A DNA stretch of 64,000 bases, from the NCBI GenBank assembly GCA_020723765.1, contig DYIF01000010.1:750-64749 (forward strand). The letters run 5' to 3'. Source of the stretch: Elusimicrobium minutum. GTDB lineage: Bacteria; Elusimicrobiota; Elusimicrobia; Elusimicrobiales; UBA9959. Each line of letters starts with the position of its first letter. The stretch's first letter is position 1. Below the pieces are notes generated by a model. That model did not search any database. It was not told where the DNA came from and saw only the letters and a list, made by a program, of their open reading frames with translations. Below are positions 892 through 56,725 of the stretch, in pieces. A program made the translations under genes and the position numbers.

Positions 892-965
892 GCCAGGGTA
901 GCTCAGCTGGTTAGAGCGGCGGTTTCGTAAACCGCAGGTCGAGGGTTCGATTCCCTTCCCTGGCT
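892..965 (+). tRNA. tRNA-Thr(CGT)
   Basis: Cloverleaf: acceptor GCCAGGG/CCCTGGC, D-arm GCTC/GAGC, anticodon stem GCGGT/ACCGC with loop TT-CGT-AA, T-arm GAGGG-TTCGATT-CCCTT; CCA not encoded. Confidence 0.96.
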
Positions 966-1187
966 TTTTTGCTAAGAAACAGCGGTAAGCTGTTTCGTGG
1001 GAATCGAAAGTCCGCAGGCCGAATTGAGCTATGCAAGAGGCCGAGGAGCGGCCCGCGAAAAAACGAGCGGTGAGCGAGTTTTATTTGCGGGAGATTCCCT
1101 TCCCTGGCTTTTTTTGCTAAGAAACAGCGACAAGCTGTTTCGCGGGAATCGAAAGTCCGCAGGCCGAATTGGGCTATGCAAAAGGCC
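949..1187 (+). repeat. tRNA-linked tandem direct repeat, period 144 bp (949-1042 repeated at 1093-1187), starting in the tRNA-Thr T-loop
   Basis: GATTCCCTTCCCTGGCTTTTTT(T)GCTAAGAAACAGCG..AAGCTGTTTCG.GGGAATCGAAAGTCCGCAGGCCGAATTG.GCTATGCAA.AGGCC occurs twice with a few substitutions. Confidence 0.95.
972..1099 (+). other. Structured non-coding element downstream of tRNA-Thr (homologous to 54258-54383)
   Basis: Hairpins 976-996, 1012-1051 and 1052-1091; closing helix GGGAATC(999-1005)/GATTCCC(1093-1099); same layout as the element after tRNA-Arg. Confidence 0.85.
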
Positions 1188-1415
1188 CAGTGGCTTTGCT
1201 TCAAAAGATTGCTTTAGACACCGTGGCAAATGCGAAGTGTTATGACACTGTAGCGGCCCGCGGTGAGAGTTGGGATTTAGTTTGTCGACGGAGTTGGTTT
1301 GCAATGCGCTTGGCGCTTTAAACTATCCCGTCGATTAGATTTGAGCGTAAAGATTTTAAAAATAATAATTTATCGGTTCTCTTTATCGGTTTGATTTTAA
1401 AGATTATGAGGTTTT

Positions 1416-3860
1416 ATGAAAAAGGAATTAAATTATAATTTTAACGATTTGCAAATTGCCGAGCCGGTTTCAATAGCAAGAAAATCTATACAATTCCTAA
1501 TCCCTTTGCTTTATCTTTTGATTTCTGTTTCTTTTTATTTAAGAACTTACGATTCGGCTCAGGTTAAAATCACACTTTTACAGATGGGGGGATTTAGCAT
1601 AATATGTTTATGGCTATCTCTGCTTTTTTTGGAAGGAAAAAAAGCGTTTAAAAAAGAAGACTTTGTTTTCCTCTCTCCTTTTTTGGCTTATCTTATTTAC
1701 ATGATTTTTTCGTTTATAAATGTTCCTTACAAACAGTGGGCCATAGACGACTTTGTAAGATATATAATTTATTCTTTCATATCCCTGATAGTTTTAAGGG
1801 AATTCGACAAAAACGCGATAGAAAAATTGACAAAATTTTTAATAATTTCCGCATGGATAGCCGTAGTATACGGTATAGTTCAGTGGATAGACGTAAATTT
1901 TTTCCCGCCGAAGGAATTGGGAGGCGGTTCGTTTGACCCTTTTATATGGAGAGGGGCTTTTGGAAATAGAATATTCTCAACTTACGGTAACCCTAATTTT
2001 TTCGCAAATTATATGGTTCTTATGCTTCCGATAATAATATCGAGATTTATTAAAACAAAATCTATCGGAATGCTGGTTCTTGCGATTCTGGATATTTTTT
2101 GCATAATAAATACTTATACCAAAGGGGCCTGGATAGGATTCGGTATATCTTCTCTTCTTTTTATTTCGATATACATATATTACTTTACCGGTTTTAATAA
2201 AAAAATAATAAGATGGATATATATTTCCTTTGTAGTTATAGGTGTTTTAATAATGCTCGGCGTCGTAAATTACGCGATGAAAACGAGCAGAACATCGGTT
2301 CCTTTTAGAGTTGCGACATGGATTTCCACATGGGAAATGATAGAAACGCATCCTTTAATAGGTAGCGGGGTCGGCTCTTTTAGACCTTTATATCCGGCAT
2401 ATAGAAGACCCATTATATTTCACTTGGAGGGCAAACATAACACTGAAACGGATCATGCGGAGAACGAACATTTGGAGCAAATTTTGGATAACGGAATAAT
2501 AGGAGCCGGAATATTTTATTGGATGATAATTTTCGTTACTATAACAGCATTAAGAGCGATAAAATTTAATGTAGAAAACAAACGAAAAGAAGAGGCTTAC
2601 GATGTTTTGGGTTATCTTGTAGCTTTTCTGGCCATGCTGATACATAATTTTACCGATGTAAGCATGAGATTCGTTTCTTCCGGGGTTTATTTGGGCCTTC
2701 TTCCGGCGGTAATAATAAACCTTTCAAGGGGACATGCCTTGTGGGAATTCCATTATATGGAAGAAGAAACTAAAACAAAAGATAAAAATCCGGAAAATAA
2801 ATCTGGGTTATTTGATAAATTAATAGGATTTTTATCCGCTGTAGTTATTATATTTGCCGGCTATAAGATATTAACGGAGTTTAAAGAAATACAGGGCGAT
2901 TTCGTAAATATGAGAAGTGGAGACCTTTTTTTATGGGTATCCTCATGGGCCGTACTTCTTTTTCTTATTGTCTATATATCGTATGTTTTTATAAAAATAA
3001 TTGTAAAGAGTTATAACCGGTATATGGCCTTCATTTTGATTATTTTTTATTTTCCGGTAAGTTATTTTCCGATTTACTACTTTTGGGGGTGGTTTAAAGC
3101 CGATGTACAGCATAATATAGCGATATATTTTTCCAAATTGGGCAATTGGGATTCGGCGCTTGGTTATTATCAAAAAGTCGTAAAAAACAATCCCACATTT
3201 ATAATGCCTTATTATTTTATGGGCAATGTTTTTACCGACAGATTTAATATGACAAAATTAAACAGGATCGATTGGGGAGATAAGGAAGGCGAACTTAGAG
3301 ACGATTTCGAAAGAGCAAAGGATATGTATGAACACGTAAGAAAGTTAGCGCCGAATTACGTTCAGATGCATCATCAAGTCGGGGTGCTTTATATGAAGAT
3401 GGCTGAGTATATGAGAGCCAACGGGAAAAACGAAGAAGCATTAAAGTATCTTGATAAAGCTATGAATAGATTTGAAATTTATCAAAACTTAGATCCGGTT
3501 TTCCCTTATAATTATTTTAGGAAAGCTCAGATATGGGTTTATAAGGGTCAGTTTAAAAAAGCCGAGGAAGAATATTTGAATTATCTTGGAGCATGGAAAT
3601 GCGATAAACACGATTTTGCGGCCGCTCAAAAAGTATACGGCGTAGACCACGAAGGAAACGGCATAAAGGAACCTTTAACATGGAAAGATATTTATCCGAA
3701 TCTTCCCGAAGTATACACCAATTTGGGTAATATTTATTTTATGATGGGAGAGTATAAAAAGTCGTACGAGAGCTATAAAAAAGCTTTAGATAAAAACCCC
3801 GACTATGAGCCCGCCAAAAAAAACATAGCCGTGGCGAAGATGAGGGGTAATATAAAGTAA
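1416..3860 (+). CDS. O-antigen ligase / O-oligosaccharyltransferase family (Wzy_C) membrane protein with C-terminal TPRs
   Basis: Multi-TM; STYGNPNFFANY, TYTKGAWIG, HPLIGSGVGSF and DHAENEHLEQILDNGIIG motifs; TPR-like C-terminus (YTNLGNIYFMMGEYKKSYESYKKAL). Confidence 0.85.
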   Translation: MKKELNYNFNDLQIAEPVSIARKSIQFLIPLLYLLISVSFYLRTYDSAQVKITLLQMGGFSIICLWLSLLFLEGKKAFKKEDFVFLSPFLAYLIYMIFSFINVPYKQWAIDDFVRYIIYSFISLIVLREFDKNAIEKLTKFLIISAWIAVVYGIVQWIDVNFFPPKELGGGSFDPFIWRGAFGNRIFSTYGNPNFFANYMVLMLPIIISRFIKTKSIGMLVLAILDIFCIINTYTKGAWIGFGISSLLFISIYIYYFTGFNKKIIRWIYISFVVIGVLIMLGVVNYAMKTSRTSVPFRVATWISTWEMIETHPLIGSGVGSFRPLYPAYRRPIIFHLEGKHNTETDHAENEHLEQILDNGIIGAGIFYWMIIFVTITALRAIKFNVENKRKEEAYDVLGYLVAFLAMLIHNFTDVSMRFVSSGVYLGLLPAVIINLSRGHALWEFHYMEEETKTKDKNPENKSGLFDKLIGFLSAVVIIFAGYKILTEFKEIQGDFVNMRSGDLFLWVSSWAVLLFLIVYISYVFIKIIVKSYNRYMAFILIIFYFPVSYFPIYYFWGWFKADVQHNIAIYFSKLGNWDSALGYYQKVVKNNPTFIMPYYFMGNVFTDRFNMTKLNRIDWGDKEGELRDDFERAKDMYEHVRKLAPNYVQMHHQVGVLYMKMAEYMRANGKNEEALKYLDKAMNRFEIYQNLDPVFPYNYFRKAQIWVYKGQFKKAEEEYLNYLGAWKCDKHDFAAAQKVYGVDHEGNGIKEPLTWKDIYPNLPEVYTNLGNIYFMMGEYKKSYESYKKALDKNPDYEPAKKNIAVAKMRGNIK

Positions 3861-3861
3861 T

Positions 3862-6402
3862 ATGAATTTTGAAGAATTTGAAAAAAGTTCTTTTATTAAA
3901 TCTTTTTTTGTTTTATCTTTCTTTTTTATTCCACTGGTTTTTTTTACAAATCTTACAAGGAATCCTTATTTTTTTCAAATAACATTTTTAAATATATTGT
4001 TAATTTCTTTTATTTTCTTTGTTTTTTATCCCGGTATTAAAAATAAAACGATAATATTGACTTCAGGCGGTTCGATTAAGCCTTTTGTTTTAATGCTTTT
4101 CGTCTTCTTTTTAACTTCGGTTCTTTCTTATATAAGACATGAAGATTTTTTTAAACCGAGCATGATAAGCGAATTCAGGCGTATATGGATATTTACCATA
4201 GTTAATTGTTTTGTTCCTTTTATGATCGCTCATTATCTTAAAAATAGTCAAGAAGATAAAGATTTAAACTATAGCCTGAGTTTTATAATACTATGGGGAG
4301 CCGCATGGTTTCTTTTTCCTTATTTTAAGTCCGATAACCTTTTTTTCGATTTTTACGGATTTCTCCTCTGGTCGGCGGGACTAATTTATTTGTTTTTGAA
4401 AACAAAAAAAATAAATATCGAGACCGTTTTAAATATAGCGATGCTTGGCGCTTTTTATGCCTCGGTATACGGAATTCTTCAGTATTTCGGCTTTGAAATA
4501 ATATGGCCTAAGGTTTTAAATCCATACGGCAGAAGAGCGGTTAGCACTTTTGGAAACCCTAACTTTATCTCTTCTTATGTTTTAATGCTTATACCGTTTG
4601 CGATTTTTTATTTTGTCAGAGCCAAAGAAATTTACGGGAAAATAATATATTTTATTTTTCTTGTTTCATATTTCGGAATGATTTTTGCAAGTCTCACTCG
4701 TTCTTCTTTAATAGGTCTTTTGGTTTCGGTTATATTTCTTTCAGTATTTAAGGATTATAGAGATTTTATCGGAATCAATTTTAAACATTTTAAAAAAATT
4801 CTATTGACCGTATTTTTTATATTGTTGTTATGGCCGGATCAGAATTTAAAGCCTTTAAGTTTCGGAGTGGCTAATAGAATATACGAAGGATTTGCAAGCA
4901 GTATTAATAAATTTTCTTTAAACGTGGAAAAAAAAGATGTTTATCCGTCTTTTCATCAAAGACTTTTAATATGGAGTTCGGGTATTCAAATGTTCAGGGA
5001 AAATCCTGTTATAGGTAAAGGATGGGGGGCTTTCGAGCTATTTTATCCTTTTTATCAAGGGTGGTTAATGAGGGTTTATCCCGCCGCAAGAGATCTCAGA
5101 ACTCACGCAAATAACGCTCATAACGAAATAATAGAGATCATTTCACAAACGGGAATTTTGGGACTGGGAGCCGCTTTGTTTTTTTTGTTTTCGCTTTTTT
5201 ATTCTTTTTTTAAAAAAATAAAAGAATATCCCTTGGAAAAAAGGATTTTCCTTTTAACCGCTTTTTCGTCGGTAGTCGGAATGATTGCAGATAACATGTT
5301 AAATGTTTCGATACATTTTGCCGTTCCCGCAATGCTTTTTTTCTTTTTATTGGGCGTCTTGTCTAAAAATTTGGGTCGGCCGGCCGAGACTTTGGAGATT
5401 AAAAAATATGGTAAATTTTTCTCGGTTTTAATATTTATTATTTCTTTTATCTTAACGGCTTTTTGGATTTCTCAATTTTTAAGGGAAATTTATTATTTTA
5501 AGGGATTTAAAGAAATGAGACAAAACGATTTTTATAATGCGATTAAAGATTTGGAGAAAGCCTATTCTTTTAATAAAAGAGAGGTTAACAATAATTACGA
5601 ATTAGCAAATGCTTATGCCAGAACCGAGGATTTGGATAAGGCGATTTTTATGTACGAAGAATCTTTAAAGACAAATGCCGGATATGATGAGATTTATTTT
5701 AATTTGGGAGTGGTTCAAAAGAAGAAAGGTCTTTTGGATAGCGCGTTTAAAAATTTCAAAACTTCCGTATGGATAAATCCATTAAACGAAAAGGGATATT
5801 ACGCCCTTGCCGAAATAGGTTTAAATAATAATAAAAATATAAAAGAGATAATAGAAATACTTGAAGACGGAGTTAAAATGCACAAATATAATTCTTATAT
5901 TTATAATCTTTTAGGTTATTGCTATGAAACTTTAAAAGATTATGAAAAAACCACCTATTATTATAAAAAGGCGGCCGAAAACGACCCTTTAAATGATACT
6001 TATTTTTTAAATTACAAACGAATCAATAAAGATCAAAAATCTAAAACCGAAGAATTTATAAATATATACAGGGATGTCAATTTTAAAAATTTATTTAACG
6101 TTCAGGAATTATATAAAAAACTTCAAAACTTGGAAAAAGAGTTTAAAGACAATCCTAAATTCGATTTCTTAATGGCCAGATATTATTTTGAAAAAGGAGA
6201 TTATCAAAAATCGATAGATTTACTTAAGAGTATAAAAGAAAGGGATCCGTATTTTTATTCGGCGGTCTATTCTCTGGGAGTTAGTTACGAAAAAATGGGG
6301 AAATATGAAGAGGCAGTAGAAATGTATGAGTATTATCTTTCTTTAAATCCAGCAAGAAACGATTTAAGAGAAAGAATTAATAAATTAAAAATAATGAAAT
6401 AA
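3862..6402 (+). CDS. O-antigen ligase / O-oligosaccharyltransferase family (Wzy_C) membrane protein with C-terminal TPRs (paralogue 2)
   Basis: STFGNPNFISSY, SLTRSSLIG, NPVIGKGWGAF and NAHNEIIEIISQTGILG motifs; multiple TPR repeats. Confidence 0.87.
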   Translation: MNFEEFEKSSFIKSFFVLSFFFIPLVFFTNLTRNPYFFQITFLNILLISFIFFVFYPGIKNKTIILTSGGSIKPFVLMLFVFFLTSVLSYIRHEDFFKPSMISEFRRIWIFTIVNCFVPFMIAHYLKNSQEDKDLNYSLSFIILWGAAWFLFPYFKSDNLFFDFYGFLLWSAGLIYLFLKTKKINIETVLNIAMLGAFYASVYGILQYFGFEIIWPKVLNPYGRRAVSTFGNPNFISSYVLMLIPFAIFYFVRAKEIYGKIIYFIFLVSYFGMIFASLTRSSLIGLLVSVIFLSVFKDYRDFIGINFKHFKKILLTVFFILLLWPDQNLKPLSFGVANRIYEGFASSINKFSLNVEKKDVYPSFHQRLLIWSSGIQMFRENPVIGKGWGAFELFYPFYQGWLMRVYPAARDLRTHANNAHNEIIEIISQTGILGLGAALFFLFSLFYSFFKKIKEYPLEKRIFLLTAFSSVVGMIADNMLNVSIHFAVPAMLFFFLLGVLSKNLGRPAETLEIKKYGKFFSVLIFIISFILTAFWISQFLREIYYFKGFKEMRQNDFYNAIKDLEKAYSFNKREVNNNYELANAYARTEDLDKAIFMYEESLKTNAGYDEIYFNLGVVQKKKGLLDSAFKNFKTSVWINPLNEKGYYALAEIGLNNNKNIKEIIEILEDGVKMHKYNSYIYNLLGYCYETLKDYEKTTYYYKKAAENDPLNDTYFLNYKRINKDQKSKTEEFINIYRDVNFKNLFNVQELYKKLQNLEKEFKDNPKFDFLMARYYFEKGDYQKSIDLLKSIKERDPYFYSAVYSLGVSYEKMGKYEEAVEMYEYYLSLNPARNDLRERINKLKIMK

Positions 6403-53302: not shown

Positions 53303-54060
53303 TCTTTTATAAGCTTATCCAACAATTCTTTGGGTATGTCGAAGTTGGAGTAAACGTTTTTTACGTCGTCGTGATTTTCCAATTCGTCCATCATTTTAAT
53401 TATAGAGCCGGCTTTTTCTTCGTCGGTTATTTTAACTTCGTTTTTAGGCAACATCGTTACTTCCGCCGATGTGGTTTCTATCTTTTTTTCGCCGAGCTTT
53501 GTTTTTACAGATTCGAAAGATTCGGGAGAAGTAAGTATTTCATATACGTCGTTGTCTTGTTCGTTTTTTATATCCTCAGCCCCGGCTTCTATCGCCACAT
53601 TGAAAAGTTCTTCTTCGGATATATTTTCTTTTTTAACGGTTATATATCCTTTTCTTTCAAAAACCCAGCTTACGCAACCGTTTGTGCCCATATTTCCGCC
53701 GTGCCTTTCGAGTATTACCCTTAATTCGTTGAAAGTTCTGTTTTTATTGTCGGTTGTAGCCTCTATCATAACCGCAGTCCCCTGAGGTCCGTAACCTTCG
53801 TATATTACCTCTTCGTAAACCGCACCCGGAATCTGACCGGTTCCTCTCATTATCGCTCTTTTTACGTTATCAAGCGGCATATTGACTTCTTTGGCGTCGT
53901 CTATGGCTTTTCTTAGCCTCGGATTTTTATCCGGATCTCCTCCGCCCATTTTTGCTGCTATAGTTATTTCTTTTATAAGTTTTGTATATATTTTTCCTTT
54001 TTTAGCGTCGTTTGCGGCTTTTTTGTGTTTTATTCCGGCCCAGTGAGAATGTCCGCCCAT
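53299..54060 (-). CDS. yebC: YebC/PmpR family protein
   Basis: [42 protein letters not shown]. Confidence 0.96.
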
Positions 54061-54176
54061 ATATTCCTCCTATTCATAATTCAAAAACAAATATATAATA
54101 AATACATATGTAAAGAACGATCGTTTTAGTTCTTACTTAATTATTTTATAAAATATAATCCTGATTTACAAACATG

Positions 54177-54249
54177 GCCCCCTTAGCTCAAAGGATAGAG
54201 CAGCTGCCTTCGAAGCAGTTGGTTAGAGGTTCGAGTCCTCTAGGGGGCG
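54177..54249 (+). tRNA. tRNA-Arg(TCG)
   Basis: Acceptor GCCCCCT/AGGGGGC, D-arm GCTC/GAGC, anticodon stem GCTGC/GCAGT with loop CT-TCG-AA, T-arm AGAGG-TTCGAGT-CCTCT; CCA not encoded. Confidence 0.95.
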
Positions 54250-54406
54250 TGCTGGTTCTAAGAAATGCGAATAGCATTTCGCGAGGACTCGAAAGCCCGC
54301 AGCGAGCTTAATCATACAAGCGAGCGAGGGGCGGTCTGCGAAAAAATTTTCGGTGAGAAAATTTTATTTGTAGGAGAGTCCTCTAGGGGGCGTGCTGGTT
54401 CTAAGA
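54233..54406 (+). repeat. 31-bp direct repeat of the tRNA-Arg 3' end (54233-54263 = 54376-54406), period 143 bp
   Basis: GAGTCCTCTAGGGGGCGTGCTGGTTCTAAGA is present twice, identical. Confidence 0.96.
54258..54383 (+). other. Structured non-coding element downstream of tRNA-Arg (homologous to 972-1099)
   Basis: Hairpins 54262-54280, 54297-54334 and 54335-54374; closing helix GAGGACTC(54283-54290)/GAGTCCTC(54376-54383). Confidence 0.85.
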
Positions 54407-54437
54407 GATAAATATATGAAAATTCATAAGGGTGGAT

Positions 54438-54668
54438 ATGAAGTTTAATTGTAAAGAATACGGAATTTACGTTTTAGTACCCACGCTAATAACAATTTTA
54501 ATATCTATTAGATACTCATGGAGGTTTTCAAGAAAAATAACAGAGAGCTTAAACTACGAAACGGGGTTCGTATTTTCTCTGCTCATAACCTTTTTCTTTT
54601 CTTTTTTTATCGCGCCCTATTCGGTTTATTTTTATGTCTGGATAGTTTCTTTGTTGTTCGGAAATTAA
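54438..54668 (+). CDS. Small hypothetical membrane protein (2 TM)
   Basis: 76-aa ORF with two hydrophobic segments and an AAGGGTGG SD-like sequence; no recognisable family. Confidence 0.5.
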   Translation: MKFNCKEYGIYVLVPTLITILISIRYSWRFSRKITESLNYETGFVFSLLITFFFSFFIAPYSVYFYVWIVSLLFGN

Positions 54669-54680
54669 AATTCTTATTGC

Positions 54681-54709
54681 TTGCTTAATAATCAATATTA
54701 TGATAAATT
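54681..54709 (+). promoter_or_regulatory. Sigma70-type promoter TTGCTT-17-TAAATT with extended TGn, 6 nt before ATG 54716
   Basis: TTGCTT 54681-54686, TG 54701-54702, TAAATT 54704-54709; no SD. Confidence 0.5.
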
Positions 54710-54715
54710 TTATTT

Positions 54716-56725
54716 ATGAGTTTGTTTTTTTTGTTTTTTTTAAACTTAAATATTTTTTCGGCGGAATCGGTTTATAAAATTTACGATTCGGCTATAAAAA
54801 GCTGGTTTGACGGAAGGATATCCGATTCCATAGGCTCTCTGGAATATATCGTTTATAACTCCACCGACGATAATCTAACTTTAAAAGCCGGAAAAGACCT
54901 TATGGTTCTTTTAGCCGAAACAAACGAAAACTCTCTGGCAATAGCTTACATAGACAAACTCAAGGCTATAAAACAGAACGATCCTTACTTAGAATTTGAA
55001 AAATCTTTCAATCTTTTTTCTCTTAACAAATATAAAGAATCTTCTGATAATTTTGATAACGTATTCGCTACCACAAACGACGAAGATTTGATTTATTTTT
55101 CGCGGTTTGTAAAAAGCATGGTGGAGATGAATTTAAGCGGATATGAAAAATCTATGGACGAACTTCAAACCGTTTATAAAAAATATCCTTCGCTTTTAGC
55201 CCCTTCTTCTTATCTTATATCCGATATGTTTAATCGGATGGGCAAAAAATTATCTGCGTTGAACTTTATAAAAGATTCTTTGAAATACGACTCTCAAAAC
55301 GTTCAAGCGTTAATAGATCTGGCCGAGTTATACGAGGAGGTCCATTATTATCTTCCCGCATGGCAATCCTTCTATACTTTAAAAGAAATAGATTTTTCCA
55401 ATCCTTACTTTTTAAAAAAATCCGAAAAGTTAATAAAAAAAATAGAAAAAGAGCCGGACGAAATTTTTTACTGGACAAGACTCTCCTGGCCGGTTCATAA
55501 CGTCCCATTACAAAACAGGTCTTTAACCAATCCGATAAAAATATCTCTATATTCGGACGAAAAGGGAACCCCGGCTTATTTGGATTCTTTTTATTTCATA
55601 TCCAATTCGGATTTCGAGGTTTTCGATAGCGTTTTGGGCAAAACCTATTATGGAAAATCTAATATGCAGTATTCCATGGAATACGTAAAATCCAACAGAA
55701 TATTCGAATTAAGAGATAACTCCAGATCCAAACTTTATTCCACAAGAAACAATTTTGATATAAGACTAAAAGATCCTAACGGAGTTTTGTTGATAAAAAA
55801 ACCTTCGGTTTCCGAAGTCTTTTCCGGAGTAAACAAAAGCGATATGGAGATTTCAAATAAGCTTGAGGTTATAGTCTCAACCTCGGGAATGACTCTTTAC
55901 AATCAAACATATATTGATCATATAATACCTTCAATGGTCTCGGTGATAAAAGGTCCGAAAGACACTTACGAGTTTGTAAAAGCGCTTACCGTAATGGTTC
56001 GAACCTATCTTTTAAGAAAAATAAACGCTTCAAAAAATTATGTTTTGCCCGATTCCGATAAAAAGTTTTTGTTTAAAGGACTGCAATATGAAAAAGAGCA
56101 GTATGTATCCGCGCTTAAAGAGACGGCAAATCAAGTTTTGACCGACAACTCGGGTTCTTATTTGGACGTTTCATATTCTCTAAATTCGGCCGGAAAAACC
56201 TTGTCGGGAGTCGACGATAATTCGTCAAAACCGTCTTCTTTGACGCCTTTTGAGTTATTCAGATGGATAAGTTTCGATTTTTTCAAAAAACCCGCAAACT
56301 CCATACCACAAGACCAAACGCTTCTTTCCGAAATATCTTGGCTTGTATTGTTAAAACCCAAATGGATAGAAGATAGATTAAATAGAGAATATAAAATAGG
56401 TAAAATAAAAAACATATATGTTCTTAAAAGAGACGAGTTTGGAATAGTAAAATCTATAAAGGTTGAAGGAACCGCGGCCAATGCGGAAATAAACGGAGAA
56501 GATGAGATAAAAAGATTTTTGTCCGGATCCACTCTTCGCTCAAATCTATTCTATATAAGGCCGATTATGAAAGGGAAATTCCCCGAGTTCTTTATAATAA
56601 AGGGCGTTGGAACCGGAAATTTTACGGGGCTATGCGTCTACGGGGCGAATTACTTATCTAAAAATATGGGTTATAATTACAAACAACTCTTAAAACATTA
56701 TTTCCCAAACGCAGTATTAAGATGA
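54716..56725 (+). CDS. Secreted TPR protein with divergent SpoIID/LytB-like C-terminal domain
   Basis: N-terminal TPR-like helices; EFVKALTVMVRTY, LRSNLF and GVGTGNFTGLCVYGA..MGYNYKQLLKHYFP match the SpoIID fold. Confidence 0.75.
   Translation: MSLFFLFFLNLNIFSAESVYKIYDSAIKSWFDGRISDSIGSLEYIVYNSTDDNLTLKAGKDLMVLLAETNENSLAIAYIDKLKAIKQNDPYLEFEKSFNLFSLNKYKESSDNFDNVFATTNDEDLIYFSRFVKSMVEMNLSGYEKSMDELQTVYKKYPSLLAPSSYLISDMFNRMGKKLSALNFIKDSLKYDSQNVQALIDLAELYEEVHYYLPAWQSFYTLKEIDFSNPYFLKKSEKLIKKIEKEPDEIFYWTRLSWPVHNVPLQNRSLTNPIKISLYSDEKGTPAYLDSFYFISNSDFEVFDSVLGKTYYGKSNMQYSMEYVKSNRIFELRDNSRSKLYSTRNNFDIRLKDPNGVLLIKKPSVSEVFSGVNKSDMEISNKLEVIVSTSGMTLYNQTYIDHIIPSMVSVIKGPKDTYEFVKALTVMVRTYLLRKINASKNYVLPDSDKKFLFKGLQYEKEQYVSALKETANQVLTDNSGSYLDVSYSLNSAGKTLSGVDDNSSKPSSLTPFELFRWISFDFFKKPANSIPQDQTLLSEISWLVLLKPKWIEDRLNREYKIGKIKNIYVLKRDEFGIVKSIKVEGTAANAEINGEDEIKRFLSGSTLRSNLFYIRPIMKGKFPEFFIIKGVGTGNFTGLCVYGANYLSKNMGYNYKQLLKHYFPNAVLR

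What the first reader, a model, noticed from the sequence alone, without database searches (positions are those of the whole stretch)
54230..54383. Each element carries a segment that exactly complements its own host tRNA's T-loop
Seen: in the Arg element GAGGACTCGAA (54283-54293) is the exact reverse complement of tRNA-Arg TTCGAGTCCTC (54230-54240, 11 bp). At the homologous position in the Thr element GGGAATCGAA (999-1008, again at 1144-1153) is the exact reverse complement of tRNA-Thr TTCGATTCCC (946-955, 10 bp). The segment changes with the host tRNA while the scaffold around it is conserved. It can pair either with the real tRNA T-loop/T-stem (10-11 bp, disrupting the T-arm) or with the downstream duplicate (7-8 bp, closing a multi-branch junction), giving two mutually exclusive folds. 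Inference: it could be a target-specifying guide for insertion, an inverted recombinase site created during integration, or a co-transcriptional switch controlling pre-tRNA folding and 3' processing.
Basis: partly seen in the sequence, partly recalled or inferred. Interest (0 to 1): 0.85.

Follow-up and report, generated by a model that had tools for sequence, protein, structure and literature searches.

The report
Small repeats mirroring host tRNA T-loops
Many tRNA genes, and the tmRNA gene, of this Elusimicrobiota bacterium are followed by a small folded repeat that carries a short stretch exactly complementary to that gene's own T-loop, which looks like a built-in address label of a previously undescribed mobile element.

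Summary
The window comes from a 2.1-Mb Elusimicrobiota genome. That genome holds 30 complete units (22 short, 8 long), which lie behind 19 tRNA genes and the tmRNA gene. Each unit has five parts in order: a short trailer, a variable hairpin, a 10-12-nt segment complementary to T-loop/T-stem positions 54-64 of the adjacent gene, a conserved three-way-junction body, and an exact copy of tRNA positions 57-73.

- **Segment match in this genome:** at least 10 nt in 18 of 20 tRNA-proximal units, against 6% of non-cognate pairings.
- **Segment match in relatives:** at least 10 nt in 38 of 48 units.
- **tmRNA case:** the unusual T-loop start TGC is mirrored by GCA in two species, although those bases lie outside the downstream copy.
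- **Fold:** strongly supported by covariation and specific to the tRNA-sense strand.
- **Distribution:** patchy, 0-33 matches per genome. The Thr array in the window is absent from three relatives.
- **Known families:** no Rfam family matches. IS110, reverse transcriptase, Cas1 and RAYT genes do not track the element.

My best reading (about 0.5) is a non-autonomous mobile element that finds T-loops by base pairing. The enzyme that moves it is unknown.

The parts
54177..54249 (+). tRNA-Arg(TCG), the host gene. The T-loop starts at 54230 (T54). Positions 57-73 are 54233-54249.
   Evidence: ARAGORN; Rfam tRNA model, 69.8 bits; sequence
54230..54240 (+). T-loop plus 3' T-stem (positions 54-64), TTCGAGTCCTC. 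This is the sequence mirrored by the element.
   Evidence: Inverted repeat I1
54250..54261 (+). Trailer with the semi-conserved TGCT..CTAAG motif, shared by units behind different tRNAs.
   Evidence: Downstream sequences of all tRNAs
54262..54280 (+). Hairpin 1 (GAAATGC-GAATA-GCATTTC). Its sequence is variable but its hairpin form is conserved. The same hairpin types recur behind unrelated tRNAs.
   Evidence: predicted in the minimum-free-energy fold
54283..54293 (+). Complementary ('guide') segment GAGGACTCGAA, the reverse complement of tRNA positions 54-64.
   Evidence: I1, 11 nt, 100%; k=11, best non-cognate 10
54294..54375 (+). Conserved body: junction GAAAG, helix P2, variable hairpin P3, junction CGAGG, and long hairpin P4 ending ..TTTATTTGTAGGA.
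   Evidence: Alignments A2/A3; RNAalifold; covariation
54376..54392 (+). Exact 17-nt copy of tRNA-Arg positions 57-73. Its first 8 nt pair with the guide segment to close the three-way junction.
   Evidence: Direct repeat D1; 17/17 identity; helix 1
54393..54406 (+). Second copy of the trailer (TGCTGGTTCTAAGA), which then diverges. It is either a remnant of a further unit or part of the duplication.
   Evidence: D1 extends to 54409 at 97%
892..965 (+). tRNA-Thr(CGT), the host gene. T54 is at 946. Positions 57-73 are 949-965.
966..1092 (+). Short (S) unit 1: trailer, hairpin 1 (976-996), guide GGGAATCGAA (999-1008), and body to 1092.
1093..1109 (+). Exact copy of tRNA-Thr positions 57-73.
   Evidence: D2; 17/17
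1110..1270 (+). Unit 2, of the long (L) type with the extra domain of about 63 nt. It has a trailer, hairpin 1, guide at 1144-1153, and a body that is truncated (no P4 end and no further tRNA copy). The end coordinate is approximate.
   Evidence: D1, D9; L-insert match at C3:1958-1986, which is window 1209-1237

Best explanation
**What it is.** These are copies of a family of small, non-autonomous mobile elements of Elusimicrobiota that home to the 3' part of tRNA and tmRNA genes. The short form is about 125 nt and the long form about 190 nt. Each insertion is bounded by a direct duplication that begins exactly at T-loop position 57 and runs at least to the discriminator (17 nt).

**What the complementary segment does (inferred).** Just 3' of a variable hairpin the element carries a 10-12-nt segment complementary to positions 54-64 of the host gene's sense strand. 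In some lineages a second segment 5' of the hairpin is complementary to the acceptor 3' strand. I read this segment as the target-matching guide. It pairs across the future junction in an intact T-loop. A change of one or two bases in it retargets the element to another tRNA.

**After insertion.** The same segment pairs with the duplicated copy and closes a conserved three-way junction. Where the acceptor complement is present, the result is a tRNA acceptor/T-arm-like minihelix.

**Shown:** the anatomy, the match to the host gene, the fold and its strand, the patchy distribution and the recent gains.

**Inferred:** that the pairing directs insertion, that the folded molecule is RNA rather than single-stranded DNA, and that the catalyst is supplied in trans. 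No catalyst was identified.
For: 1. **Match to the host gene.** It holds in 23 of 27 units (at least 10 nt) in the own genome and 38 of 48 in relatives, against 6-7.5% for non-cognate pairs. It follows T-loop variants: TTCAAAT with ATTTGAA, TTCAATT with AATTGAA, TTCGAGT with ACTCGAA.

2. **tmRNA.** Its T-loop begins TGC, not TTC, and the segment ends GCA, not GAA. This is so in G000 (TGCGAAT / ATTCGCA) and in G001 (TGCAAAT / ATTTGCA), whose units differ in hairpin 1 and P3. G002 has an empty site. Positions 54-56 are not in the downstream copy, so this covariation needs pairing with, or copying of, the intact T-loop.

3. **Recent spread.**
   - The element gives 30, 7 and 33 model matches in the three species of the genus. 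It was found in 25 of 61 related genomes and 31 of 151 sampled across the phylum.
   - The tRNA-Thr(CGT) site is empty in G001, G002 and G010.
   - The bodies at Glu(TTC) and Leu(CAG) are 100% identical but have different hairpin 1.
   - Thr(CGT) and Leu(CAA) units are 95% identical, and the guide differs only at the base that pairs with T-loop position 59.
   - Arg(TCG) and Arg(CCT) units are 95% identical with unrelated hairpin 1.

4. **Exact duplication.** The 17-nt copy of positions 57-73 is exact in 20 of 27 units. This includes the tmRNA, whose acceptor sequence is unique, so the copy is most simply derived from the target.

5. **Not conserved as a function.** At tRNA-Arg(TCG) the guide is interrupted in G002 and replaced in G001 by other inserts.

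6. **Copy number fits guide length.** Lineages that also have the acceptor complement, and so a longer and more specific match, have 1-4 copies. The genus without it has up to 33. This last point is a correlation only.
Against: - **No mobilising enzyme was found.** G000 (98% complete) has no IS110 DEDD domain, RVT_1, resolvase or TnpB zinc-ribbon hit. Its only tyrosine recombinases look like XerC and XerD.
- **Candidate enzymes do not track the element.** This holds for RAYT-like genes, Cas1, IS110 and reverse transcriptase.
- **No insertion event or empty/filled pair with alignable flanks was seen.** The boundaries therefore remain ambiguous within the repeat. The element could carry its own positions 57-73 and integrate at 56/57, or it could insert at 73/74 with a target duplication.
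- **Arrays can grow by unequal crossing-over.** The Lys(CTT) array units share the same interruption of about 50 nt in the tRNA copy.
- **The fold could serve an RNA function unrelated to mobility.** It is strongly conserved and strand-specific, with two conserved G-U pairs.
- **Some units mismatch their tRNA.** Examples are two Gln units, one Ser, one His and Arg(TCT).
- **An alternative route to matching exists.** Correction after insertion, by gene conversion or mismatch repair between the inverted repeats, could also produce the match.
Confidence: 0.5

Rival explanations
1. The element is a cis-acting RNA switch. It is co-transcribed with the tRNA. Its segment either invades the T-arm (10-12 bp) or pairs with the downstream copy (7-8 bp), and this controls folding, 3' processing or quality control of the precursor.
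For: - No promoter-like site was found on the sense strand inside the element, while a promoter-like site lies just upstream of tRNA-Thr. In the own genus no terminator separates tRNA and element.
- The fold is specific to the tRNA-sense strand and has conserved G-U pairs.
- Both pairings are available.
- The GCA/TGC covariation at the tmRNA also fits a requirement to pair with the real T-loop in RNA.
Against: - The element is dispensable and patchy: 36 of 61 relatives have no match, and sister species have empty Thr(CGT) and tmRNA sites.
- The segment is destroyed by nested inserts at orthologous Arg(TCG) loci.
- In the second family of the order an intrinsic-terminator-like hairpin with a T run lies between the tRNA and the element.
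- Tandem and decayed copies are hard to reconcile with a tuned regulator.
- It does not explain how the matching copy and complement arise at about 20 different genes.
Confidence: 0.15
2. The unit is a gene for a tRNA-like non-coding RNA. The acceptor complement, hairpin 1, the T complement, the body and positions 57-73 fold into an acceptor/T-arm minihelix with the neighbour's identity. RNase P and RNase Z cut it out, and it serves a function of its own, such as a decoy, a tag or a handle for a protein.
For: - In several lineages a second segment 5' of hairpin 1 complements the acceptor 3' strand. It is a full 7 nt in 3 rows and 5-6 nt in 4 more of the 34 tRNA rows printed from 31 loci.
- In L052 it is the true complement (C) where the tRNA itself has a U-G pair.
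- The minimum-free-energy fold of that unit is an 8-bp acceptor-like stem, hairpin 1, an 8-bp T-like stem and the three-way junction, with z = -7.1.
- Guide RNAs that mimic a tRNA 5' half direct tRNase Z (PMC9141469, PMC2691602; listing and abstract starts only).
Against: - The acceptor complement is missing in the window's genus and weak in most rows.
- The acceptor parts of downstream copies decay (Asp 16/17, third Leu(CAG) unit 4/17).
- No expression data exist.
- This reading does not explain patchiness, arrays or nested inserts any better than mobility does. It is compatible with the mobile reading rather than exclusive of it.
Confidence: 0.12
3. The units are att-site modules or relics of conventional integrative elements that use a tyrosine recombinase (host XerC/XerD or a phage integrase in trans). 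The tRNA 3' copy is the usual attL/attR repeat. The complementary segment forms a folded single-stranded att site, as in integron attC or CTX phage, or is a by-product.
For: - Direct repeats of a tRNA 3' part starting in the T-loop are what T-loop-targeting integrases leave behind (established knowledge, recalled).
- tRNA-Ser genes that carry the element are also used by a restriction-modification islet in G000 and by a prophage with an integrase in record G185.
- The G000 genome has XerC- and XerD-like genes.
- The strand-specific fold would suit a folded single-strand site.
Against: - No integrase lies next to any unit. Of the 30 best-hit loci from the relatives search, 27 held at least one tRNA gene within about 1.5 kb of the hit, and the units have no cargo.
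- The viral-contig hits are host DNA beside a prophage, not an autonomous form.
- An element that brings its own positions 57-73 would make chimeric tRNAs at each new target, yet about 20 different genes carry perfect copies.
- Protein-recognised core sites would not vary with each tRNA.
Confidence: 0.13

Closest known systems
IS110/IS1111 elements with bridge (seek) RNA (recalled, not from a call)
   Same: A structured non-coding RNA encoded in the element carries short segments complementary to the target. The target is therefore specified by base pairing and can be changed by a few substitutions.
   Different: No DEDD/IS110 recombinase was found in G000 or G002, the two highest-copy genomes. 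It was found in only 4 of the 24 element-bearing relatives. There is no Rfam match. Here one segment matches both the target and the element's own flank, there are no two internal loops, and there is a 17-nt or longer duplication.
IS200/IS605 and REP/RAYT single-strand elements (recalled)
   Same: They are strand-specific, with a subterminal hairpin and an adjacent short guide that base-pairs with the cleavage or target site. Non-autonomous hairpin repeats are mobilised in trans by a single-copy HUH Y1 enzyme. G000 has one RAYT-like gene.
   Different: The guide here is 10-12 nt, not 4. A conserved three-way-junction body is present and a target duplication is present. RAYT homologues do not track the element: they occur in many genomes without it and were not found in 14 of the 24 element-bearing genomes.
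Internal guide sequence of group I introns and EBS/IBS of group II introns (recalled)
   Same: A conserved RNA scaffold has a short segment that covaries with the flanking host sequence. The segment here could align TTC (5' side) and positions 57-64 (3' side) just as an internal guide aligns two exons.
   Different: No Rfam intron match was found, even at E up to 10. The body is only about 85 nt. The tRNA is already intact upstream, so no splicing is needed. No reverse transcriptase was found in the genus.
Casposons and CRISPR spacer integration (PMC5137440, passages read)
   Same: Integration occurs next to a tRNA gene. The T-psi-C-loop sequence is part of the target, and there is a long (15-bp) target duplication that overlaps the tRNA 3' end. 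Addition is polar, at one end.
   Different: The duplication here is 17 nt and lies wholly inside the tRNA (positions 57-73). The element is about 125 nt, has no terminal inverted repeats and carries a target complement. Cas1 was found in only 12 of the 24 element-bearing genomes.
Integron attC sites and CTX-phage folded att sites (recalled)
   Same: These are small, strand-specific, folded recombination sites. Arrays build up at one attachment point, and host or trans-acting tyrosine recombinases act on them.
   Different: There is no IntI. The paired arms here vary with the target instead of being a fixed protein-binding box. There is no cargo in the units seen.
tRNA-targeting genomic islands and prophages (recalled)
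   Same: A direct repeat of the tRNA 3' part starts in the T-loop, and repeated use of the same tRNA gene is seen.
   Different: About 20 different tRNA genes plus the tmRNA gene are used in one genome. There is no integrase, and an internal reverse complement of the target is present.

Membership tests
IS110/IS1111 (bridge-RNA elements) | DEDD (RuvC-like) recombinase, PF01548, encoded in the element or at least in the genome | tested here: not met
   There was no hit in G000. Across 61 relatives, 11 genomes had a hit, but among the 24 credible element-bearing genomes only G001, G022, G028 and G029 did. G000 and G002 had none, and family f2 had 0 of 22.
IS110/IS1111 (bridge-RNA elements) | RNA with separate target-binding and donor-binding loops | tested here: not met
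   The consensus fold is a three-way junction closed by the guide paired to the tRNA copy. There are no two guide-bearing internal loops.
IS200/IS605 - REP/RAYT | HUH Y1 transposase that co-occurs with the repeats | tested here: not met
   G000 has one RAYT-like gene (NF047646, 54 bits, below the cut-off of 80). Homologues occur in 30 of 36 genomes of family f1, including ones without the element. They were not found in G010, G014 or the f2 genera g14 and g17, which have the element.
IS200/IS605 - REP/RAYT | Hairpin with an adjacent guide that pairs with the cleavage site; strand-specific; no target duplication | tested here: inconclusive
   A hairpin with an adjacent complementary segment and strand specificity are present. 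However, a 17-nt or longer direct repeat flanks the unit.
Group I / group II introns | Match to the intron covariance models; catalytic core | tested here: not met
   At the gathering threshold only the two tRNA matches were found. The only other matches up to E = 10 were weak, and none was to an intron family.
Group II introns / retroelements | Reverse transcriptase (PF00078) | tested here: not met
   There was no hit in G000, none in the 3 genomes of the genus, and hits in 4 of the 24 element-bearing genomes.
Casposon / Cas1-mediated integration | Cas1-family integrase co-occurring with the element | tested here: not met
   G000 has two Cas1 genes. Only 12 of the 24 element-bearing genomes have a Cas1 hit; for example G010, G014 and G023 do not.
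Tyrosine-recombinase integrative elements | Integrase gene in or beside the element | tested here: not met
   G000 has only two PF00589 hits, with best matches to XerC (328 bits) and XerD (324 bits). Both are just under the equivalog cut-offs but over the Xer subfamily cut-off, and neither is near a unit. Neighbours of the window's units are ordinary genes.
Tyrosine-recombinase integrative elements | Direct repeat of the tRNA 3' part at both ends | tested here: met
   A 17/17 copy of positions 57-73 is present in 20 of 27 units.
Any Rfam family | Score at or above the family's gathering threshold | tested here: not met
   Only the tRNA family matched in the window.

The most novel reading that the evidence does not exclude
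A programmable, base-pair-guided insertion system whose address label is a 10-20-nt complement of the tRNA 3' region, carried on a structured RNA (or folded strand) of about 100 nt. It would be moved by a still unidentified factor, host- or phage-encoded, that belongs to none of the known RNA-guided recombinase or transposase families. The tRNA-like minihelix it forms after insertion would recruit tRNA-processing enzymes to define the ends of the guide RNA.
Probability: 0.25. Interest if true: 0.92.

Novelty: categorically new. Interest (0 to 1): 0.8.

Why it matters
If the complementary segment really specifies the insertion site, this would be a compact, naturally reprogrammable targeting module of about 100 nt, aimed at one of the most conserved sequences in biology. 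No recognisable recombinase of the known RNA-guided kinds accompanies it. That points to an undiscovered enzyme, or to an unexpected use of host tRNA or DNA machinery.

The family also supplies a natural series of retargeting events. One- or two-base changes in the guide go with new tRNA hosts, including the tmRNA. This makes the hypothesis directly testable.

Even under the rival readings, it is an undescribed structured RNA family with strong covariation support. It sits behind about 20 of the 45 predicted tRNA genes and the tmRNA gene of one bacterium, so it would bear on tRNA gene expression, on genome assembly breaks and on tRNA-gene annotation in Elusimicrobiota.

Tried and rejected
**Rfam.** At the gathering threshold over the window, and at E up to 10 over both loci, Rfam gave only tRNA and weak chance hits such as YrlA and a plastid UTR.

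**Candidate enzymes.** These were tested and dropped as not tracking the element:
- IS110
- reverse transcriptase
- TnpB zinc ribbon
- serine recombinase
- RAYT
- Cas1
- tyrosine recombinases, which turned out to be XerC/XerD-like

**Cargo idea.** At G000 C32 a 2.2-kb stretch lies between tRNA-Ser(CGA) and a unit. It holds a DNA methyltransferase-like ORF and a 274-aa partner ORF. I named these from motifs in the translation and did not scan them against Pfam. A decayed second tRNA-Ser 3' remnant lies about 90 nt before hairpin 1. I therefore read this as a separate islet that integrated later, not as cargo of the element.

**Viral contigs.** Three pattern scans gave 7 loci. The model confirmed 4 good hits (E < 1e-5) in 3 records, none with an intact tRNA. 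Record G185 is a provirus with an integrase at its far end. The unit follows a 12-nt tRNA-Ser 3' end, which I read as the prophage's att repeat, so the element there is host DNA beside the prophage. L099-L101 are weak hits and L099 lies in coding sequence. L055 (G017) is a false positive inside coding sequence.

**Plasmid and phage collections.** No match was found.

**Sequencing runs.** No RNA holder is listed. Contigs of 4 DNA runs laid on window 53700-55200 break at the repeat, and no joint across the element was listed. This gave no empty-site variant and no evidence either way.

**Empty versus filled sites.** Comparison with sister species worked for presence or absence. The flanks were too diverged to fix the exact boundaries.

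**Literature.** Five completed full-text searches found no description of such elements. A sixth located the casposon papers. One search timed out. The MITE survey PMC11602168 mentions tRNA only in its reference list. Supplementary files were not opened.

**Correction.** The correct count is 22 S and 8 L.
Full report
**What is in the window**

ARAGORN and Rfam find two tRNA genes: tRNA-Thr(CGT) at 892-965 and tRNA-Arg(TCG) at 54177-54249. Both are followed by the same kind of sequence. Behind tRNA-Arg the parts are:
- a 12-nt trailer (54250-54261)
- a hairpin (54262-54280)
- the segment GAGGACTCGAA (54283-54293)
- an 82-nt conserved body (54294-54375)
- an exact 17-nt copy of the tRNA's last 17 bases (54376-54392)

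In tRNA numbering the segment is the reverse complement of positions 54-64. The copy is positions 57-73, so it starts directly after T-loop TTC and ends at the discriminator.

The Thr locus has one short unit (966-1092 plus copy 1093-1109). A second unit of a longer type follows, and its 3' part is truncated. The neighbouring genes are ordinary: amino-acid permease, two Wzy_C+TPR proteins, YebC, RuvC, a SpoIID-like protein and a glycosyltransferase. None is a recombinase.

**It is a family, and the observation generalises**

The window is part of a 2.1-Mb genome of 32 contigs, 98% complete. Record titles of near relatives place it in Elusimicrobiota. A BLAST of the Arg element finds 32 places at E < 1e-3.

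A motif search finds 30 complete units, 22 short and 8 long. Twenty-seven of them have a tRNA gene or the tmRNA gene upstream on the same contig, covering 19 tRNA genes and the tmRNA. The other three are two units at the end of contig C29 and one orphan on C31. The genome has 45 ARAGORN tRNA calls.

Among the 27 units with an upstream gene, the segment in front of the conserved GAAAG is a contiguous complement, anchored at T54, of at least 9 nt in 25 and at least 10 nt in 23. Among the 20 units that directly follow the gene it is at least 10 nt in 18. The same segments paired with other tRNAs of the genome reach 10 nt in 6% of 1157 cases.

The segment follows each T-loop variant: TTCAAAT, TTCAATT, TTCAAGT, TTCGATT, TTCGAGT and TTCGAAT. 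The downstream copy equals positions 57-73 at 17 of 17 bases in 20 of 27 units. The other seven are accounted for as follows:
- one is cut by a contig end
- one has a single change (Asp)
- one is decayed (third Leu(CAG) unit)
- two are interrupted by a further insert of about 50 nt (Lys array)
- one carries a tRNA-Met-type copy (last Lys unit)
- one is the orphan

**Structure**

An alignment of 21 short units folds as a three-way junction. The segment pairs with the first 7-8 nt of the downstream copy to form the closing helix. Next come junction GAAAG, a 3-4-bp helix P2, a variable hairpin P3 and junction CGAGG. Last is a long hairpin P4 whose end abuts the copy.

A covariance model built on this alignment was used to collect 57 matches from 39 loci of other genomes. 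On that alignment:
- 94% of cells are standard pairs, against 72% after shuffling and 30-50% when partners are slid
- 25 of 29 pairs show changes on both sides
- no shuffle out of 500 reaches any of the five measures

That alignment was fitted to the model, which favours the structure somewhat. Even so, the margin is large.

Two P4 pairs are conserved G-U (40 and 36 of 55 sequences). The folded strand is therefore the tRNA-sense strand. This points to RNA, or possibly a folded single DNA strand.

Hairpin 1 varies in sequence but is always a hairpin, and the same hairpin types recur behind unrelated tRNAs. The long units differ by one extra domain of about 63 nt, inserted at the CGAGG junction and found nowhere else in the genome.

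**Distribution**

The model finds the family in:
- 25 of 61 related genomes (9 of 19 genera, two families of the order). One of the 25 (G017) is a false positive on inspection.
- 31 of 151 genomes sampled across the phylum (10 of 63 genera, 7 families)

The three species of the window's genus give 30, 7 and 33 model matches. Elsewhere the figure is 1-7.

Of the 30 best-hit loci, 27 have at least one tRNA gene within about 1.5 kb of the hit. The other three are two at contig ends and the false positive. Across 48 units from these other genomes the segment matches its tRNA over at least 10 nt in 38, against 7.5% of 2106 non-cognate pairings.

In the second family of the order, and in other families of the phylum, an intrinsic-terminator-like hairpin lies between the tRNA and the element. 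Often a second segment, 5' of hairpin 1, complements the acceptor 3' strand. It is a full 7 nt in 3 rows and 5-6 nt in 4 more of the 34 tRNA rows printed from 31 loci. In those cases the element is antisense to the whole last 20 nt or so of the tRNA, split by hairpin 1 exactly at the T-stem/acceptor junction.

One such unit (L052) folds into an 8-bp acceptor-like stem, hairpin 1, an 8-bp T-like stem and the junction, with z = -7.1. There the acceptor complement has C where the tRNA's own 5' strand has U opposite G. It is therefore a complement of the 3' strand, not a copy of the 5' strand.

**Evidence for mobility**

- The tRNA-Thr(CGT) gene, next to the same Wzy/TPR gene, has no element in G001, G002 or G010.
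- The tmRNA gene has an element in G000 and G001 but not in G002.
- The tRNA-Arg(TCG) site is occupied in all three species of the genus and in genus g13, and empty in G010. In G002 two tandem copies of a related small element sit inside the complementary segment. In G001 a long REP-like hairpin replaces it.
- Pairs of units at different tRNAs are nearly identical:
  - Glu(TTC) and Leu(CAG): body 100% identical, same segment, different hairpin 1.
  - Thr(CGT) and Leu(CAA): body 95% identical, the segment differs at one base, the one opposite T-loop position 59.
  - Arg(TCG) and Arg(CCT): body 95% identical, unrelated hairpin 1, and the segment changed at the base opposite position 57.
- Contigs of the assembly, and of four other metagenome runs, break at the repeat.

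**The most telling detail**

The last three bases of the segment (GAA) pair with T54-T55-C56. These lie upstream of the duplication and are absent from the downstream copy, which is preceded by GGA, ACC and similar. The tmRNA T-loop begins TGC, and the segment there ends GCA:
- G000: TGCGAAT with ATTCGCA, copy GAAT...
- G001: TGCAAAT with ATTTGCA, copy AAAT...

The two units differ in hairpin 1, P2 and P3. So the segment matches the uninterrupted T-loop across the junction. Keeping the closing helix alone would not require this. Either the pairing with the intact site matters (at insertion, or in the transcript), or the segment is copied or corrected from the real T-loop.

**How it most likely works**

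I commit, at about 0.5, to a non-autonomous mobile element whose complementary segment is the target-matching part. It pairs with the sense strand of a T-loop, and insertion leaves positions 57-73 on both sides.

The 17-nt repeat makes the insertion point ambiguous. The element could bring its own 57-73 and enter at 56/57. Alternatively it could enter at 73/74, the tRNA 3' processing site, with a 17-nt target duplication. I prefer the second. About 20 different genes, including the tmRNA with its unique acceptor sequence, have perfect copies on both sides, and an imported 3' end would make chimeric tRNAs at every new target.

Retargeting then needs only one or two substitutions in the segment, because T-loops are so alike. 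The near-identical pairs show exactly such changes. Lineages with the added acceptor complement, and so a longer match, have few copies. The genus without it has many. This is suggestive only.

After insertion the segment pairs with the copy and closes the junction. With the acceptor complement this makes a tRNA-like minihelix that RNase P and RNase Z could cut. That last point is an inference from established tRNA-processing rules and from the guide-RNA work listed, of which I saw only the listing.

**What is missing**

The catalyst has not been identified. G000 has no IS110, reverse-transcriptase, resolvase or TnpB hit. Its two tyrosine recombinases look like XerC and XerD.

None of four candidate families tracks the element among the 24 credible carriers:
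- RAYT-like homologues: present in 30 of 36 genomes of family f1, including non-carriers, and not found in 14 carriers
- Cas1: 12 of 24
- IS110: 4 of 24, none in G000 or G002
- reverse transcriptase: 4 of 24, none in the genus

The enzyme may be a host housekeeping protein. It may be a family I did not test. It may also be encoded on a phage or plasmid missing from these assemblies.

Arrays need not record repeated insertion. The Lys(CTT) array units share the same interruption of the copy, which indicates unequal crossing-over. Correction of the segment after insertion, by conversion between the inverted repeats, remains possible.

**Rivals**

- **Cis-acting pre-tRNA switch (0.15).** It fits co-transcription and the two alternative pairings. 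It fits poorly with the patchiness, the terminator between tRNA and element in other lineages, and the destroyed segments at orthologous loci.
- **tRNA-like RNA gene (0.12).** It fits the minihelix fold, but the acceptor complement is absent in this genus. This reading is compatible with mobility.
- **Conventional integrase or Xer att module, or its relic (0.13).** It fits the direct repeat. It does not fit the lack of any integrase next to a unit, the twenty-odd targets, or paired arms that change with the target.

**Comparison with what is known**

The element works most like elements that read their target by base pairing:
- IS110 bridge RNA
- the 4-nt guides beside IS200/IS605 hairpins
- the internal guide of group I introns
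- EBS/IBS of group II introns

In the geometry of its target duplication it resembles casposons. The Aciduliprofundum casposon uses the T-psi-C-loop region of tRNA-Pro plus a 15-bp duplicated segment as its target (PMC5137440, passages read). It fails the defining tests of each of these families (see the membership table) and matches no Rfam family. Five completed full-text searches found no description of it. Apart from PMC5137440, the comparisons with these systems rest on my own recall.

**Verdict**

I rate it as lying outside the known kinds of element. The caveat is that identifying its enzyme might yet attach it to a known superfamily.

Noticed in passing
L082 (G002 tRNA-Arg(TCG) locus), also L033 and L059: A second, related small element of about 125 nt (GAACAGCC ... 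GCGTGAC) sits inside the complementary segment of the first type, once as two tandem copies. It has its own hairpin and a segment (GCTGTTC or GCAGTCC) that covaries with a sequence at its own left end rather than with a tRNA. It looks like a parasite of the first element.
   Followed up: partly
L083 and L035 (G001): A long imperfect hairpin of about 75 nt (CCGCC...GTAGGCGG) replaces or splits the complementary segment. G001 has 4 RAYT-like matches, so this may be a REP-type repeat.
   Followed up: no
G000 C4:22047-22121 (tRNA-Ala CGC) and about 160 nt downstream: A different repeat behind tRNA-Ala ends with a near-copy of the tRNA's last 15 nt or so plus trailer. It contains CGAACCC, which is complementary to the 5' side of the T-arm (GGGTTCG). 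This may be a second tRNA-end-duplicating family.
   Followed up: no
G000 C4, C12, C29, C31: A 26-nt motif (TTCTACTTCGCTAAAGCTTCGTAGAA) occurs 4 times, each time directly after a tRNA 3' end or a copy of one.
   Followed up: partly
G000 C10:25766-25858 (tRNA-Ser GCT) downstream; C15 downstream of tRNA-Leu(GAG): A tandem repeat of about 72 nt follows tRNA-Ser(GCT) and runs into a stretch of N. Another N stretch follows tRNA-Leu(GAG). These are masked or withheld sequence, so further units there cannot be seen.
   Followed up: no
L092 = G000 C32:10600-14000: A 2.2-kb islet lies between tRNA-Ser(CGA) and an element unit. It holds an HTH fragment, a 268-aa methyltransferase-like ORF and a 274-aa partner ORF, all named from motifs in the translation only. 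A decayed tRNA-Ser 3' remnant marks its far end. It looks like a restriction-modification islet that integrated later into the same tRNA.
   Followed up: partly
G185 (provirus record), L107:1-16000: Two units lie in inverted orientation 8.7 kb apart. Each follows a 12-nt tRNA-Ser 3' end, one of them right after an NrdD C-terminal fragment. Between them are MuF_C, WYL/WCX and GTPase genes. An integrase lies at the other end of the 47-kb record.
   Followed up: partly
G000 C26:24380-25572 and C26:3200-3700: The last unit of the tRNA-Lys(CTT) array ends with a copy of the tRNA-Met 3' part plus about 190 nt of the Met locus flank. This points to ectopic recombination between units at two loci 21 kb apart on the same contig.
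   Followed up: partly
G000 C8:22346-22438 and C31:27801-27894: Two ARAGORN calls (tRNA-Lys of 93 nt and tRNA-Phe of 94 nt) lack a normal T-loop and are probably false.
   Followed up: no
window 1416-3860 and 3862-6402: Two adjacent paralogous genes each combine an O-antigen-ligase (Wzy_C) domain with C-terminal TPR repeats.
   Followed up: no
G000 C21:48386-48745: ARAGORN reads the tmRNA tag as ANSYEMAWANA. The T-loop starts TGC instead of TTC in all three species of the genus.
   Followed up: partly
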